A DNA stretch of 64,000 nt from a virus. The notes below the pieces were generated by a model, which was not told where the DNA came from, searched no databases, and saw only the letters and a program-made list of their open reading frames with translations. This document shows, piece after piece, positions 38,136 through 42,224 of the stretch (position 1 is its first letter; every line of letters begins with the position of its first letter). A program made the translations under genes and the position numbers. The stretch is taken from positions 15,661 through 79,660 of the IMG/VR virus record IMGVR_UViG_3300015371_000015. One strand, 5' to 3'.

Positions 38136-38950
38136 ACTCGACTGAGCGAGTCTAAATAGGCCTTAAGCTCAGAGCGGCCCTCTTCGGAGGGTGTGGACTG
38201 TCTGGCGAGACAGAACTTTCTCAGCGAAACTGATCTGGCATACCGGAATCCGGCGTGCTTGCGGGAGTAGGTGTACAACTGAGGATTGGTTAAACAAAAA
38301 CACGTGGTGGCAAGTTCGAGGCAGCCCTGGAGTTGGCCGCTAAGCAGTCGGGTCTCCAGCCCTCTCGGTCTCTGACTCTTCATAGAGAAGAACCGAGGCA
38401 CTACCACCGCTCGCCCAGCACCTGAGGCGTGCAATAAACGGGGTGGCCCCAGTATCAGGCCATGTCAAAAGGCACCCCACCTTGACGTATGTCATATTTG
38501 TTAGAGACCTAGGAGGTGAGAGCGATGCAAGCCCGAGGGTTGTAATCACCCTCCTACAAGTCAACATAGTCTTGGTCATGGCAAGGACCCCCATTACGAT
38601 GGTAAGGCCCCTCCCATGATCATATTCGCATGGAGGCACTACACTCCGTGCGGCAAACCCGTCCCCTACAAACACCCAAGCTTCCGCATAGACGGTCATG
38701 AACGTAAAAGCGGACTGCTGAACTCTAGTGAGCCCAGACAACCTGCGTAGCGGCTTTATGTGGCGCCATCAGGAATCTGCAAGCCTAGAGCAACTGGAGC
38801 GGCCCATAGTGGCCTGGTTACAAATGCACGAGACAAGCACACCGGTCAGGTTAATGTATCCATATTCGTTGTGAATCACTGGACTAAACTGAACCGCGTA
38901 CATGAGGTGAGCTGCCACCATGGTTGATTCCAAGCGCAGTGAAGTTTAAG
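38136..38950 (+). ncRNA. Candidate large (~800 nt) structured ncRNA, or cluster of ncRNAs
   Basis: No credible + strand ORF; dense hairpins (ccctc-ttcg-gaggg, ctgtc/gacag, gtggtgg/ctaccac, ggggtg/cacccc, taggagg/ctccta, ctctag/ctagag, taaact/agttta). Confidence 0.6.
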
Positions 38951-38955
38951 CATTA

Positions 38956-39086
38956 CCCGTTCGGGTCGAATGCAGTCGGTTAACTTGAGTTATTGGTTCG
39001 AGTCCAATATGCCTTCTTTGAGGGCATTGGCGCAATTGGCAGCGCAAAGTACATAAAACCCGGCAGCACCCTTACATCCGAACGGG
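38956..39086 (+). ncRNA. Y RNA 1 (YrlA-like; permuted T arm, acceptor hairpin, D arm)
   Basis: cccgttcgg/ccgaacggg stem; GGGTCGAA/ACATCC; T loop TTCGAGT; D arm TGGCGCAATTGGCAGCGC; directly upstream of Ro60. Confidence 0.88.
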
Positions 39087-39115
39087 CTTCATCTATCCCA
39101 CGCAGAGGAGAACGC

Positions 39116-40888
39116 ATGACCACGACTGACCCGTACGCGGGTTTCGGTACGCGACAGACCCACCAGCAGCACCGTGCTCCCGACCGACCGGAGCAGGTCA
39201 AGAACAACGCCGGCGGCTACGTCTTCCAGATCGATCCCCTGACCCAGCTCAAGCGGTTCCTGACCATCGGGACCGTCGGGGGATCCTACTACGTCGGCGA
39301 GAAGGAACTGACCCGTGAGAACGGTGAGATGATCCTGAGCTTCACGCGCAACCCCACCACGCACGCCCAGCTCGTCGACACCATCGTCGAGATCAGTCTC
39401 GCGGGCCGTGCACCCAAGCAGAACCCCACGCTGTTCGCCTTGGCCATCGCGTGCCAGCACGGCGACACCGCTTCCAAGCAGTACGCGCGCAAGCAGCTCA
39501 CGAAGGTCGTCCGCACCGGTACCCACCTGTTCCTCTTCGTGGGTTACGTCCGGCAGTTCGGTGGCTGGAATCGTGGCATGCGGCGTGCAATCGGTGCGTG
39601 GTACTCCGAGAAGGACCCGGACAAGCTGGCCTACCAGCTGATCAAGTACCGGCGTAGGAACGACCTCACCCACCGTGATGTCTTGCGGATGGCTCACCCG
39701 AAGATCAAGATGGACGAGGTCAACGAGCGGATCGCCATGCTCGATGCCGCGTTCCGGGCGAACGAGGACGACCCGAACACCAAGGAGCTCATGGCGGATG
39801 CTCTTCGGGCTCGCAACGAGCGGCTGAAGCTCCGGTCGAACATCGACTGGACCATCAAGTACCAGAACCGGGACTACTCGGCGCTGGAGGGTGGAACCTC
39901 GAAGATCATCGAGGCGTTCGAGGCCTGCTGGCGTGAGCCGGAGAACATCCCGGCAATCATCAGCGACAACCCGGGGCTCCCCTGGGAGGCCTTGCCGGAC
40001 GAGGCTCTGACCAAGGTGGAGACGTGGGACCGGCTGCTGGACAACGGCATGCCCATCCACGCTCTGCTGCGTCAGCTCCCCCGTCTGACCAACCTCGGGA
40101 TGCTGCCTCCGATGGGGGCCGGGCGTACGGACGATGTCATCCACCAGCTCCTGAACCGTGAGGCGCTGGAGAGGGCTCGGATGCACCCGATCAACGTCCT
40201 GGTGGCGCTCAAGACCTATGCCTCCGGGCAGGGCGAGCGCAACCACTGGTCGCCGAACACCAAGATCATCGACGCGCTGGACGAGATGTTCTACCGCTCG
40301 TTCGGTTTCATCGAGCCCACAGGCAAGCGCATCTTGCAGGCCTGTGACATCTCGTACTCGATGATGGGAGCGAGGACCTTCGGTGGGAAGAAGCCTTTCC
40401 CGCTCTCACCGGCTGAGATCACCGGTGCGATGGCGTTGGCGACGGCTCACATCGAGCCCAACCACCACATCGTCGGGTTCTCCTCGCTCTCGGGGCAGAA
40501 CAACCGGGATCCGCGGGACTCGAAGCTGATCGACCTCAACATCAGCAAGCGGCAGCGCATGGACGACGTCATCAACACGATGTACAACCGGACCTTCGGT
40601 GGTACGGACGTCGCGCTGCCCATGGTCGCCGCCTTGGAGCACGGGTGGAAGATCGACACGTTCGTGATCTACACGGACAACGAGACCTGGCACGGGGATA
40701 TTCATCCTCACCAGGCGCTCGAGCGTTACCGCCGGCAGACCGGAATCGACGCACGCCTCGTGGTGTGTGCGATGTCTGCCTCCCACTTCAGTGTGGCCGA
40801 CCCGAAGGACCCCCGTCAGCTCGACATCAGCGGCTTCGACAGCGCGATGCCTCAGCTGATCTCGGAGTTCTCGGCCGGCAACATCTGA
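39116..40888 (+). CDS. rsr: Ro60/TROVE-domain RNA-binding protein (Rsr ortholog)
   Basis: QVKNNAGGYVF, LKRFLTIGT.GGSYY, RTGTHLF, YQLIKY..R..THRDVLR.AHP; vWA MIDAS DISYSM, GGTD, YTDNETW; GFDS; RBS GAGGAG. Confidence 0.96.
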   Translation: MTTTDPYAGFGTRQTHQQHRAPDRPEQVKNNAGGYVFQIDPLTQLKRFLTIGTVGGSYYVGEKELTRENGEMILSFTRNPTTHAQLVDTIVEISLAGRAPKQNPTLFALAIACQHGDTASKQYARKQLTKVVRTGTHLFLFVGYVRQFGGWNRGMRRAIGAWYSEKDPDKLAYQLIKYRRRNDLTHRDVLRMAHPKIKMDEVNERIAMLDAAFRANEDDPNTKELMADALRARNERLKLRSNIDWTIKYQNRDYSALEGGTSKIIEAFEACWREPENIPAIISDNPGLPWEALPDEALTKVETWDRLLDNGMPIHALLRQLPRLTNLGMLPPMGAGRTDDVIHQLLNREALERARMHPINVLVALKTYASGQGERNHWSPNTKIIDALDEMFYRSFGFIEPTGKRILQACDISYSMMGARTFGGKKPFPLSPAEITGAMALATAHIEPNHHIVGFSSLSGQNNRDPRDSKLIDLNISKRQRMDDVINTMYNRTFGGTDVALPMVAALEHGWKIDTFVIYTDNETWHGDIHPHQALERYRRQTGIDARLVVCAMSASHFSVADPKDPRQLDISGFDSAMPQLISEFSAGNI

Positions 40889-41082: not shown

Positions 41083-41343
41083 ATGCCAAATCCCGACCGC
41101 CCGTTCAAGATCAGTGACCATGCCCGAACCAAGATGAGTTTGCGCGCGATTACGAAGGACGAAGTGTTCGACACCATCCTCGCCTACGAGAAGACAGACA
41201 AGAAGAGTAACCAGAAGCGTTATTTCAAAGGACGTCTTTGCGTAGTCGTGGGAGAAGGTCGCACCTTCGACACCATCATCACCGTGCTCCTCAACGAGTT
41301 CGACACATGGACTGATCACCACGCAAGAGATCGCAAGAAGTAG
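41083..41343 (+). CDS. DUF4258-like small protein (predicted RelE/colicin-like RNase fold)
   Basis: ISDHARTKMSLRAITKDEV...LCVVV...IITV pattern; own motif 41044, RBS AGGAGG, terminator 41349-41383. Confidence 0.65.
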   Translation: MPNPDRPFKISDHARTKMSLRAITKDEVFDTILAYEKTDKKSNQKRYFKGRLCVVVGEGRTFDTIITVLLNEFDTWTDHHARDRKK

Positions 41344-41635: not shown

Positions 41636-41709
41636 GATGCGGGTCGCTAGTCTTCGGTTATCAAACTCTCAATTTGAAGCCATCCGGAGACGTCAACCAC
41701 ATCCGCATC
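41636..41709 (+). ncRNA. Y RNA 4 (minimal; displays anticodon stem-loop Glu-CUC)
   Basis: gatgcgg/ccgcatc; gtcttcgg/ccggagac; tcaaa-CTCTCAA-tttga. Confidence 0.82.
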
Positions 41710-41717
41710 ACCTAAGA

Positions 41718-41822
41718 CGGACCTTGGGCTATAGCAGGCGGCCCTTGGACGAAGGCCTCTAGGATACCGTCCAGAAGAGGACCAAGGCCGGTCGGGATGA
41801 CCTCCCGCGGTATCCAAGTCTG
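41718..41822 (+). ncRNA. Unclassified structured RNA between Y RNAs 4 and 5
   Basis: cggac/gtctg, cggcc-ttgg/ccaa-ggccg, tggacg/cgtcca, cctct/agagg, ggataccgt/gcggtatcc. Confidence 0.45.
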
Positions 41823-41835
41823 CCCCCTAAGCTTC

Positions 41836-41976
41836 AGCGACGTGGGTCGAAAGAGAATCGGTTAACTTTCCTCTCAAGAAAAAGACCCGGGTTCGAATCC
41901 CGGCGGGTGCATAGCACCTGTAGTTTAGTGGCCTAAAACTCAAAACATCGGTCCTCACCACTACATCTACGTCGTT
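41836..41976 (+). ncRNA. Y RNA 5 containing a complete circularly permuted tRNA-Glu(CUC) mimic
   Basis: Anticodon arm tttc-CTCTCAA-gaaa; T arm ccggg-TTCGAAT-cccgg; acceptor cgggtgc-ata-gcacctg; D arm gttt-agtggccta-aaac. Confidence 0.9.
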
Positions 41977-41985
41977 TAGTTTTGT

Positions 41986-42126
41986 GTCAGAGCGGGTCGA
42001 ACTGGAATTCGGTTACCTCTGCGGAAGGAGTATTGTCGGTTCGAGTCCGGCCGTCCCCGTTAGGGGATGTAGTGTAATTGGCAACACGCTAAAATCCCGG
42101 AATCCTCCCTTTACATCCGCTCTGAC
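41986..42126 (+). ncRNA. Y RNA 6 containing a circularly permuted tRNA mimic with Arg-GCG loop
   Basis: cct-CTGCGGA-agg; T arm gtcgg-TTCGAGT-ccggc; acceptor cgtcccc-gtta-ggggatg; D arm gtgt-aattggca-acac. Confidence 0.88.
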
Positions 42127-42141
42127 CCATATTTGCACAAC

Positions 42142-42224
42142 CCTGTTCGGGTCGAATTGAATCGGTTATCATTCGACTGCTAATCGGAAACCGACGCCGG
42201 TTCAAACCCCTACATCCGAACAGG
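42142..42224 (+). ncRNA. Y RNA 7 (minimal; displays anticodon stem-loop Ser-GCU)
   Basis: cctgttcgg/ccgaacagg; ttgaatcgg/ccggttcaa; ttcga-CTGCTAA-tcgga. Confidence 0.85.

What the first reader, a model, noticed from the sequence alone, without database searches (positions are those of the whole stretch)
41836..42126. Complete circularly permuted tRNAs embedded in Y RNAs 5 and 6
Seen: the order is anticodon arm, variable region, T arm, 7-bp acceptor stem closed by a 3-4 nt loop (ata, gtta), UA, D arm. This is a whole tRNA opened between the D and anticodon arms and grafted onto the Ro-binding stem. In Y5 both the CUC loop and the AGTGGCCTA D loop resemble tRNA-Glu as I recall it. Inference: payloads were captured from real tRNA genes, with Y1/Y2/Y3 (anticodon arm lost) and Y4/Y7 (only anticodon arm kept) as reduction products. 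A more speculative alternative is processing into tRNA, as with permuted tRNA genes of algae and archaea.
Basis: partly seen in the sequence, partly recalled or inferred. Interest (0 to 1): 0.8.

Follow-up and report, generated by a model that had tools for sequence, protein, structure and literature searches.

The report
Phage Y RNAs carrying permuted tRNA mimics
Two small RNAs encoded beside a phage Ro60 gene each contain a whole tRNA cloverleaf in rearranged order; this is the known YrlA class of Y RNA, but the hairpin published as its "variable arm" behaves like a copy of a real anticodon loop, which gives a testable clue to what these RNAs bind.

Summary
Y5 (41836-41976) and Y6 (41986-42126) lie about 1 kb downstream of a phage Ro60/Rsr gene. 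Each reads: Ro-binding stem, hairpin with a 7-nt loop, 4-nt variable loop, T arm, 7-bp acceptor stem closed by 3-4 nt, UA, D arm.

This is the published YrlA architecture (Chen 2014; Wang 2018). Wang et al. already noted the likeness to circularly permuted tRNAs. M. smegmatis YrlA is cut by RNase P and given CCA in vivo.

Across 200 YrlA cores from phage and actinobacterial Rsr loci, about half carry this hairpin at exact tRNA spacing. U33, R37 and A38 are conserved and the triplet is hypervariable. More than half of the loops are identical in 7/7 nt to the real anticodon loop with that triplet.

Capture from tRNA genes is partly supported. Y5 is Glu-like. Y6 has the D arm and variable loop of tRNA-Gln, but its loop reads GCG (Arg). 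Family-wide, body and triplet do not agree, and the phage encodes no RNA ligase, so maturation into decoding tRNAs is unlikely. Function as an anticodon-loop decoy or bait is inferred, not shown.

Earlier scan notes on this same genome reported the same observation; none came from other DNA.

The parts
38993..40888 (+). Ro60/Rsr gene. The listed ORF start overlaps Y1, so the real start is probably further downstream.
   Evidence: Pfam TROVE 8e-39 and vWA_Ro60 5.5e-51. Homology to phage Ro-like proteins starts at about residue 40-50.
41836..41976 (+). Y5: a whole YrlA-type Y RNA with terminal stem CGACGT/ACGTCG, 41838-41843 with 41969-41974.
41846..41853 (+). Y5 Ro-binding motif GTCGAAAG (matches GNCGAAN0-1G).
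   Evidence: motif as defined in PMC4201824.
41866..41882 (+). Y5 anticodon-arm mimic: stem CTTTC/GAAAA (4 pairs plus a C-A mismatch), loop CTCTCAA, triplet CTC at 41873-41875.
   Evidence: The loop matches 6 of 7 nt of the real tRNA-Glu(CTC) loop.
41883..41886 (+). Y5 4-nt variable loop AGAC.
   Evidence: Four-nucleotide variable loops occur in the tRNA-Glu, Gln, Gly and Cys of the reference set.
41887..41903 (+). Y5 T arm CCGGG-TTCGAAT-CCCGG.
   Evidence: Rfam YrlA and tRNA alignments.
41904..41920 (+). Y5 7-bp acceptor stem closed by the loop ATA. Predicted RNase P site between 41913 and 41914.
   Evidence: Cleavage is inferred from M. smegmatis YrlA.
41921..41939 (+). Y5 U8-A9 and D arm GTTT-AGTGGCCTA-AAAC.
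   Evidence: The D loop is identical to that of M. wolinskyi tRNA-Glu(TTC).
41940..41952 (+). Y5 3' linker TCAAAAC and the return strand of the inner Y stem.
41986..42126 (+). Y6: a whole YrlA-type Y RNA with a 10-bp terminal stem, 41988-41997 with 42115-42124.
   Evidence: The minimum-free-energy fold gives the permuted cloverleaf.
42014..42030 (+). Y6 anticodon-arm mimic: TACCT-CTGCGGA-AGGAG (U-G, A-A, then 3 Watson-Crick pairs), triplet GCG at 42021-42023.
   Evidence: The register is fixed by homologues; the same hairpin occurs in L032. It keeps the G36-G37 rule.
42031..42051 (+). Y6 variable loop TATT and T arm GTCGG-TTCGAGT-CCGGC.
   Evidence: TATT is identical to the variable loop of tRNA-Gln(CTG) in L210-L212.
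42052..42069 (+). Y6 7-bp acceptor stem closed by the loop GTTA. Predicted RNase P site between 42062 and 42063.
   Evidence: cleavage is inferred.
42070..42087 (+). Y6 U8-A9 and D arm GTGT-AATTGGCA-ACAC.
   Evidence: Identical in 16/16 nt to the tRNA-Gln D arm. Exact copies occur in 46 of 401 Actinomycetota genomes, and all 8 sampled lie in tRNA-Gln genes.
38956..39086 (+). Y1: a YrlA-type unit upstream of rsr, with T arm, closed acceptor stem and D arm. Its anticodon stem is formed in trans (type I).
41636..41709 (+). Y4: a mini Y RNA whose only insert is a 5-bp/7-nt hairpin (41661-41677) with the same loop CTCTCAA as Y5.
42142..42224 (+). Y7: a mini Y RNA with the hairpin TTCGA-CTGCTAA-TCGGA (42172-42188). 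The loop is identical to the real tRNA-Ser(GCT) loop.

Best explanation
Y5 and Y6 are YrlA-class Y RNAs of a phage Ro60 (Rsr) ribonucleoprotein.

Shown by sequence and comparison:
- Each has a Ro-binding stem and an effector module that is a full tRNA cloverleaf in circularly permuted order.
- The Y stem enters at tRNA position 26.
- The hairpin that the literature labels 'V' is a copy of an anticodon stem-loop: 3-4 pairs and a 7-nt loop with U33, R37 and A38, placed 4-5 nt before the T stem.
- About half of YrlA modules in actinobacteria and their phages share this layout. They include M. smegmatis YrlA, the experimentally studied example.

Inferred by analogy with M. smegmatis YrlA, which also has a 7-bp acceptor stem: host RNase P opens the acceptor loop and CCA is added. 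The result would be a two-piece tRNA look-alike still held on Ro60.

Inferred function: the module presents a specific anticodon loop plus the tRNA elbow to tRNA-binding proteins. In a phage this is most likely as a decoy or bait for anticodon-loop-directed nucleases or other tRNA-targeting factors. It is not a supply of decoding tRNAs.
For: - Context: the Rsr gene lies directly upstream on the same strand. Rfam YrlA aligns both cores.
- Geometry: the hairpin geometry peaks sharply at a variable-loop length of 4-5 nt (54/101 against about 1% in shuffles).
- Covariation: in 111 sequences chosen without regard to pairing, pairs 29:41, 30:40 and 31:39 are standard in 80, 71 and 71% with 4-6 pair types. 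With the partner slid, the figures are 12-63%. U33 is 77%, R37 93% and A38 86%.
- Independent fold: RNAalifold on its own predicts the hairpin, T arm, closed acceptor stem and D arm, with 13 of 19 pairs showing compensatory changes.
- Loop identity: 44 of 81 loops are identical in 7/7 nt to the real anticodon loop with that triplet (null mean 24.9, maximum 33 in 5000 shuffles).
- Loop grammar: G36 is followed by G37 in 27 of 30 cases, as in real tRNAs.
- Triplet variability: among close relatives the triplet varies 10.7 times more per site than its surroundings.
- Profile score: re-permuted modules reach a median of 41.9 bits on a tRNA profile, against 26.6 with the hairpin shuffled. Y5 scores 25.3 against 15.8±4.1, and Y6 23.5 against 15.3±4.4.
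- Decoy precedent: a competitive-inhibitor role for YrlA has been proposed (PMC7790460).
- Mini units: Y RNAs carrying only such a hairpin occur here (Y4, Y7) and in many other Rsr loci.
Against: - No RNA data exist for this phage.
- The only solved YrlA structure (S. Typhimurium, PDB 6cu1) has the Y stem itself in the anticodon-stem position and no hairpin. The 3-D place of the hairpin in this type is therefore unknown.
- The top two 'pairs' of the arm (27:43 and 28:42) are no better than slid controls.
- Thermodynamic folding gives inconsistent hairpins.
- S. Typhimurium YrlA was not cut by the SOS-induced anticodon nuclease. That fits an inhibitor but not a bait.
- No nuclease or partner is identified here, so the decoy role is inference only.
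Confidence: 0.6

Rival explanations
1. The published reading is right. The hairpin is only a variable arm ('V'), and the Y stem takes the anticodon-stem position as in the S. Typhimurium crystal structure. Its likeness to anticodon loops is an inherited relic without a role.
For: - The labelling in Chen 2014.
- The crystal structure of a YrlA whose anticodon stem is formed by the 5' and 3' strands.
- Only 3 conserved pairs, with 27:43 and 28:42 not conserved.
- Minimum-free-energy folds are inconsistent.
Against: - The hairpin is followed by 4-5 nt of class-I-type variable loop (AGGTC, AGAC). In the class II tRNAs of the reference set, 1-3 nt follow the V stem (by inspection).
- The 7-nt loop keeps U33, R37 and A38.
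- Flanking positions track the triplet as in real isoacceptors. A drifting relic would lose that coupling.
- The solved structure is of the other type, which has no hairpin.
Confidence: 0.2
2. The units are permuted pre-tRNAs, or two-piece tRNAs, that are matured, charged and used in translation. They would supply tRNA-Glu(CUC) and tRNA-Arg(GCG) to a phage that has no tRNA genes.
For: - The cloverleaf is complete, with a 7-bp acceptor stem.
- The phage has no tRNA gene.
- The cognate codons GAG and CGC are heavily used.
- Wang 2018 raised the possibility of processing.
Against: - The phage has no RtcB, Rnl2-type ligase or CCA enzyme.
- No bacterial splicing endonuclease is known.
- Y6 combines a Gln-type body with a GCG loop, and body and triplet are unrelated family-wide.
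- The anticodon stems are short and mismatched.
- Mini units (Y4, Y7) carry the same kind of loop with no tRNA body.
- GCG is not among the anticodons of the reference genome.
Confidence: 0.07
3. The tRNA-like module is a tether or a shield. It either recruits a host exoribonuclease or tRNA enzyme to Ro60 (as Yrn1 recruits PNPase), or simply protects the Y RNA from nucleases. The loop triplet is free to drift.
For: - RYPER complexes in D. radiodurans and in a Thermus phage.
- The protective-fold idea in Chen 2014.
- The triplet is the fastest-changing part of the module.
Against: - Free drift does not explain why positions 32, 37 and 38 follow the triplet as in real tRNAs.
- It does not explain why one phage keeps two different units with the same loop (Y4 and Y5).
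- It does not explain why many Rsr loci keep hairpin-only units.
Confidence: 0.13

Closest known systems
YrlA Y RNAs (Rfam RF02553; Chen et al. 2014, PMC4201824). M. smegmatis YrlA is the closest studied example.
   Same: - Encoded next to rsr on the same strand.
- GNCGAA Ro motif and the conserved YUAY.
- A hairpin followed by a T arm, a closed acceptor stem, UA and a D arm.
- A 7-bp acceptor stem, as in M. smegmatis YrlA, which is cut by RNase P and gains CCA.
- The region matched by the published M. smegmatis YrlA-5' probe holds the same kind of hairpin, with loop CUUCUAA.
   Different: - Y5 and Y6 score far below the Rfam threshold (27 and 24.5 bits against 69), as do known phage YrlA loci.
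- Their bodies are Glu-type and Gln-type rather than the common YrlA D and T arm sequences.
- They sit in an array of seven units downstream as well as upstream of rsr.
S. Typhimurium YrlA tRNA-like domain, crystal structure PDB 6cu1 (Wang et al. 2018)
   Same: L-shaped tRNA mimic with a closed acceptor stem and a T arm placed 5' of the D arm. The authors noted the likeness to circularly permuted tRNAs.
   Different: There the anticodon stem is made by the 5' and 3' strands, the variable loop is 5 nt, and there is no hairpin; the paper states that it 'lacks the anticodon loop'. Window unit Y1 is of that type; Y5 and Y6 are not.
Circularly permuted tRNA genes of red and green algae and of one archaeon (Soma 2007, Maruyama 2010, Chan 2011, as cited)
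   Same: The 3' half precedes the 5' half, and the acceptor ends are joined by a short loop that RNase P or RNase Z could open.
   Different: Those are matured through a circular intermediate by splicing endonuclease and ligase into working tRNAs. Here no such enzymes are known or encoded, the break is at position 26, a Ro-binding stem occupies the junction, and body and triplet disagree.
D. radiodurans Yrn1
   Same: A Y RNA with tRNA-like features. Chen 2014 modelled a possible 'anticodon arm' in it, with a 5-bp stem and a 6-nt loop.
   Different: The T and D elements are in a different order, there is no full D arm, and it belongs to a separate lineage.
b7a-tRNA (a tRNA-like RNA beside Band-7 and RtcB genes; Burroughs and Aravind 2016, as cited)
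   Same: A near-complete tRNA look-alike linked to RNA-repair and conflict loci, occasionally found beside Rsr.
   Different: It has contiguous tRNA order and no Ro-binding stem. I did not examine it here.

Membership tests
YrlA (Y RNA-like A) | Encoded within about 4 kb of a Ro60/Rsr gene, on the same strand | tested here: met
   Rsr lies at 38993-40888 (+). Y5 and Y6 start 0.95 and 1.1 kb downstream on the + strand.
YrlA (Y RNA-like A) | 5' motif GNCGAAN0-1G, and the conserved YUAY after the inner stem | tested here: met
   Y5 has GTCGAAAG and TTAA. Y6 has GTCGAA, followed by CT rather than G, and TTAC.
YrlA (Y RNA-like A) | T arm, closed acceptor stem-loop, UA and D arm in that order, with tRNA-invariant bases | tested here: met
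   The Rfam YrlA alignment covers model positions 26-82 and 29-81; descriptor search.
YrlA (Y RNA-like A) | Rfam gathering score of 69 bits | tested here: not met
   Scores are 27.2 and 24.5 bits. The Bxz1 and FuzzBuster YrlA loci also score only 32.5 and 33.3 bits, so the threshold excludes accepted phage members too.
YrlA (Y RNA-like A) | Bound by Rsr; pseudouridine 55 and dihydrouridine present | not testable with these tools
   No RNA data; only DNA metagenome runs hold the sequence.
Canonical tRNA gene | Contiguous cloverleaf with free acceptor ends, scoring above tRNA model thresholds | tested here: not met
   ARAGORN finds none in the window. Rfam tRNA gives 21.4 bits against a threshold of 29 for Y5 only, with the D arm skipped.
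Canonical tRNA gene | 5-bp anticodon stem and a 7-nt loop with U33 and R37 | tested here: inconclusive
   The loop features are met in both units. The stems have 4 pairs (Y5) and 3 Watson-Crick pairs plus one G-U (Y6). Family-wide, only 3 pairs are conserved.
Canonical tRNA gene | Body identity agrees with the anticodon | tested here: not met
   Y5 is Glu-like with CUC. Y6 has a Gln-type D arm and variable loop with GCG. Family-wide agreement is 10/113 against 7.8 expected.
Circularly permuted tRNA genes | 3' half upstream of the 5' half, acceptor ends joined by a short intervening loop | tested here: met
Circularly permuted tRNA genes | Bulge-helix-bulge junction and maturation through a circular intermediate into a contiguous tRNA | not tested
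   I did not search for this motif. The junction is a Ro-binding stem. No RNA ligase is encoded. Maturation itself cannot be tested with these tools.

The most novel reading that the evidence does not exclude
The 'V' stem-loop of Y RNAs in actinobacteria and their phages is a programmable display of anticodon loops. Each Y RNA, with or without the rest of the tRNA body, would carry a faithful copy of one isoacceptor's anticodon loop on a Ro60 scaffold. The triplet would turn over fast under conflict-driven selection. The particle would act as a decoy, bait or sensor for anticodon-directed nucleases and other tRNA-targeting weapons. This phage's seven-unit array, with loops CUC (twice), GCG and GCU, would be a counter-defence set protecting the tRNAs it most needs.
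Probability: 0.3. Interest if true: 0.8.

Novelty: new member of a known kind. Interest (0 to 1): 0.58.

Why it matters
What the tRNA-like domain of bacterial Y RNAs binds has been an open question since 2014. If the hairpin is a specific anticodon-loop copy rather than a variable arm, the search narrows to proteins that read anticodon loops: anticodon nucleases, TrmD- and TsaD-type modification enzymes, and synthetases. The triplet becomes an experimental handle, because it can be swapped and the partner or host range followed. It would also give phage Ro60 loci a concrete role in tRNA-centred conflicts. A practical point: ARAGORN calls about one in ten of these modules as tRNA genes, so some annotated phage or bacterial 'tRNAs' may be YrlA.

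Tried and rejected
- Megablast of the array against GenBank phages found no match. The nearest Rsr proteins are only 40-46% identical, so no close relative exists for unit-by-unit comparison.
- ARAGORN on re-permuted sequences calls Y5 as tRNA-Glu(ctc) in 15 of 16 junction choices, and gives unstable calls for Y6. I rejected it as a test because it also of 640 controls with a shuffled hairpin.
- Minimum-free-energy folding of the hairpin segment alone gave loops of 3-12 nt, inconsistent between homologues.
- A grid requiring 4 consecutive pairs showed no dominant geometry. The arm has only 3 conserved pairs.
- MAFFT alignment A2 mixes 4-nt and 5-nt variable loops in one register, so I did not use it for pair counts.
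- Whole-length identity to 167 real tRNAs gave Y5 53/72 (Glu) against 52 (Arg), and Y6 a three-way tie at 52/71. It cannot assign an isotype.
- The Y5 D arm, allowing one mismatch, occurs in only 1 of 401 Actinomycetota genomes, which is no better than the reversed-pattern control. It is not a verbatim copy of a tRNA.
- No RNA holder is listed among the sequencing runs. Contigs from four rhizosphere metagenome runs are identical to the window and show no variants.
- The promoter and terminator scan gave nothing above shuffles.
- PHROGs gave no family for the genes flanking the array.
- The 2020 Annual Review on bacterial Ro60 (PMC10870794) is not held. I could not check whether it already describes the hairpin as anticodon-like.

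Full report
WHAT IS THERE

The window is part of a 79.7-kb IMG/VR virus record rated complete. It has 57% G+C and is found in rhizosphere and soil metagenomes. A gene at 38993-40888 encodes a Ro60/Rsr protein, with Pfam TROVE at 8e-39 and vWA_Ro60 at 5.5e-51. Its nearest relatives are Ro-like proteins of Microbacterium, Gordonia, Mycobacterium and Streptomyces phages, at 35-46% identity.

Around this gene lie seven units. They share an outer stem, GGGTCGAA, an inner stem, GGTTA, an insert, a return strand and ACATCC.

Y5 and Y6 occupy the finding's coordinates.

IT IS THE KNOWN YrlA KIND

Rfam's YrlA model aligns the T arm, closed acceptor stem and D arm of both units. The scores are 27.2 and 24.5 bits against a threshold of 69. 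Accepted phage examples score similarly: Bxz1 32.5 and FuzzBuster 33.3.

- Chen et al. 2014 (PMC4201824) described YrlA as a Ro-binding stem with a GNCGAA motif, followed by a less-conserved stem-loop 'V', a T arm, a closed 'acceptor' stem-loop and a D arm. They found it next to Ro60 in 254 bacteria and 22 phages.
- They also showed that M. smegmatis YrlA, which has a 7-bp acceptor stem, is cut by RNase P in the acceptor loop and receives CCA in vivo. Both halves stay bound to Rsr.
- Wang et al. 2018 solved the S. Typhimurium module (PDB 6cu1). They state that it 'lacks the anticodon loop'. They explicitly compare YrlA with circularly permuted tRNA genes and raise possible processing.

The core of the finding, and its speculative alternative, are therefore already in print.

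WHAT IS NOT IN PRINT: THE HAIRPIN AS AN ANTICODON ARM

I collected 80 viral and 80 actinobacterial Rsr loci and searched them with a descriptor for T arm, closed acceptor stem and D arm. This gave 101 phage-side cores, which include the window's own units and the eight loci fetched earlier, and 99 bacterial cores.

- Offset scan, with no selection on pairing. The combination of 3 closing pairs, a 7-nt loop, U33 and R37 occurs 5 nt before the T stem in 39% of phage cores and 4 nt before it in 15%. Every other offset gives at most 6%, and shuffles give about 1%.
- Pairing in an unbiased set. In 111 unique sequences chosen only by their variable-loop motif, pairs 29:41, 30:40 and 31:39 are standard in 80, 71 and 71%, with 4-6 pair types each. 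With the partner slid, the figures are 12-63%.
- The top of the arm. Pairs 27:43 and 28:42 are no better than the slid controls. The conserved UA of the YUAY motif sits there, opposite purines.
- Loop composition in the same set: U33 77%, R37 93%, A38 86%, with positions 34-36 close to random.
- Independent fold. RNAalifold on 15 modules predicts on its own the 3-bp/7-nt hairpin, T arm, 7-bp closed acceptor stem and D arm. Compensatory changes occur in 13 of 19 pairs.

The strongest result comes from comparison with the 48 real tRNAs of Mycolicibacterium wolinskyi. I first removed modules that ARAGORN calls natively and required the GGTT motif to abut the hairpin.

- 44 of 81 hairpin loops are then identical in all seven positions to the real anticodon loop carrying the same triplet. 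The null mean is 24.9 and the maximum 33 in 5000 shuffles. On unique loops, 16 of 49 match, with P of about 0.0002.
- The rule that G36 is followed by G37 holds in 27 of 30 cases, as in real tRNAs.
- Among near-identical modules, the triplet differs 10.7 times more per site than the surrounding 36 positions.

The hairpin is thus a copy of an anticodon stem-loop that follows isoacceptor-specific grammar. It sits on a short stem, at exact tRNA distance from the T arm.

TWO ARCHITECTURES, PLUS HAIRPIN-ONLY UNITS

- Type II has the intact hairpin. The Y stem enters at position 26 and a 7-9 nt 3' linker (commonly GCTAAAC) follows the D arm. About half of the cores are of this type: 64 of 101 phage-side and 49 of 99 bacterial. 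Y5, Y6 and M. wolinskyi YrlA belong here. So does M. smegmatis YrlA, judging from the published probe.
- Type I forms the anticodon stem in trans between the 5' and 3' strands, as in the crystal structure. Window unit Y1 is of this type.
- Units with only such a hairpin and no tRNA body occur here: Y4 with loop CTCTCAA, the same as Y5, and Y7 with CTGCTAA. They also occur in many other Rsr loci, including Bxz1 and BearBQ.

ARAGORN calls re-permuted Y5 as tRNA-Glu(ctc) in 15 of 16 junction choices, and gives unstable calls for Y6. It also calls a tRNA in 73% of controls with the hairpin shuffled, so the test is nearly uninformative.

A graded score from a profile of 40 class I tRNAs discriminates better.

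| Sequence set | Re-permuted (bits) | Hairpin shuffled (bits) |
|---|---|---|
| Y5 | 25.3 | 15.8 ± 4.1 |
| Y6 | 23.5 | 15.3 ± 4.4 |
| All type II modules, median | 41.9 | 26.6 |
| Training tRNAs, median | 46.0 | not applicable |

CAPTURE FROM tRNA GENES

Y5:
- Its D loop is identical to that of tRNA-Glu.
- Its variable loop is 4 nt.
- Its loop matches 6 of 7 nt of the tRNA-Glu(CUC) loop.
- tRNA-Glu is the best match for both halves.
- However, its D arm is not a verbatim copy of any tRNA in 401 genomes.
- Its whole-length lead over tRNA-Arg is one position.

Y6:
- Its D arm is identical in 16/16 nt to the tRNA-Gln D arm.
- Exact copies occur in 46 of 401 Actinomycetota genomes, with none for the reversed control. 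All eight sampled copies lie in tRNA-Gln genes.
- Its variable loop TATT equals that of tRNA-Gln(CTG) in three of those genomes.
- Its loop nevertheless reads GCG.

Family-wide, body and triplet agree in 10 of 113 modules against 7.8 expected. Bodies that are clearly Glu-type carry Ser-like and Ile loops.

Descent from tRNA-Glu-like and tRNA-Gln-like genes is plausible for the bodies. The hairpin evolves as an independent cassette. Because both halves of each unit are of one isotype, two origins fit: permutation of one tRNA, or a tandem pair of like tRNAs as in the Sim-Wolin dimer model cited.

HOW IT PROBABLY WORKS

Shown: the anatomy, family membership, loop mimicry and the locus context.

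Inferred: the module offers a specific anticodon loop and the tRNA elbow to tRNA-binding proteins. A decoy or competitive-inhibitor role was already suggested for YrlA in Salmonella (PMC7790460). It would fit a phage that keeps several loops cognate to its most used codons: GAG at 49.7 per thousand, CGC and AGC.

Maturation into decoding tRNAs is unlikely for four reasons:
- the phage has no tRNA gene, RtcB, Rnl2-type ligase or CCA enzyme;
- body and triplet are discordant;
- the stems are short;
- hairpin-only units exist.

LIMITS

- There are no transcript data and no sequence variants in four metagenome runs.
- There is no structure for this YrlA type.
- The reference tRNAs come mainly from one genome.
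- Related sequences are not independent.
- One key review was not available, so 'not published' means not found in the literature I could search.

Noticed in passing
window 38136-38198 (+): A Pistol ribozyme, at 60.8 bits against a gathering score of 34.5, lies about 0.8 kb upstream of the Ro60 locus at the start of a long ORF-poor stretch.
   Followed up: no
window 41083-41343 (+): An 86-aa ORF with a DUF4258 hit (1.6e-06) sits inside the Y RNA array, between Y2 and Y3. PHROGs gives no family for it.
   Followed up: partly
window 38956-39086 versus the ORF start at 38993: The longest Rsr ORF overlaps Y RNA unit Y1. Homology to other Ro proteins begins at about residue 40-50, so the true start is probably downstream. 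The same situation was reported for M. smegmatis.
   Followed up: partly
L008:2892, L007:2896, L092:2852, L123:2975, L157:2877, L018:3333, L116:2920 and others: Mini Y RNAs whose only insert is an anticodon-like 5-bp/7-nt hairpin occur in many phage and bacterial Rsr loci, like window units Y4 and Y7. Several have loops identical to real anticodon loops.
   Followed up: partly
L013:3083-3160, L027:2579-2653, L030:2796-2874, L048:2898-2975 and 7 more: ARAGORN of 113 YrlA modules as ordinary tRNA genes in their native order. Some annotated 'tRNAs' next to Ro genes may really be YrlA.
   Followed up: no
L010:3392, L058:1004, L077:3222: YrlAs with the anticodon stem formed in trans often keep an anticodon-loop-like stretch (for example CTGTTAA) just 5' of the 39-43 strand. 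The break there appears to lie between positions 31 and 32.
   Followed up: no
L029:2873, L035:3009, L039:2981; L026:3202; L051:605: Unusual loops: an 8-nt loop CTTGCTAA in three loci, and triplets complementary to stop codons, TTA (L026) and TCA (L051).
   Followed up: no
window 41870-41903, run X3 record 11: A 230-nt metagenome contig from another organism carries a real tRNA. Its loose ends show a D arm and a terminal ACCA. It matches Y5's loop, variable loop and T arm with 4 differences in 34 nt.
   Followed up: no
L210-L212: In three actinobacterial genomes, the tRNA-Gln(CTG) that shares Y6's D arm and variable loop is followed about 100 nt downstream by tRNA-Glu(CTC). These are the two isotypes that the adjacent units Y6 and Y5 resemble.
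   Followed up: no
window 41712-41832: A structured stretch of about 120 nt between Y4 and Y5 lacks the Y scaffold. It folds at -45 kcal/mol and has no Rfam match.
   Followed up: no
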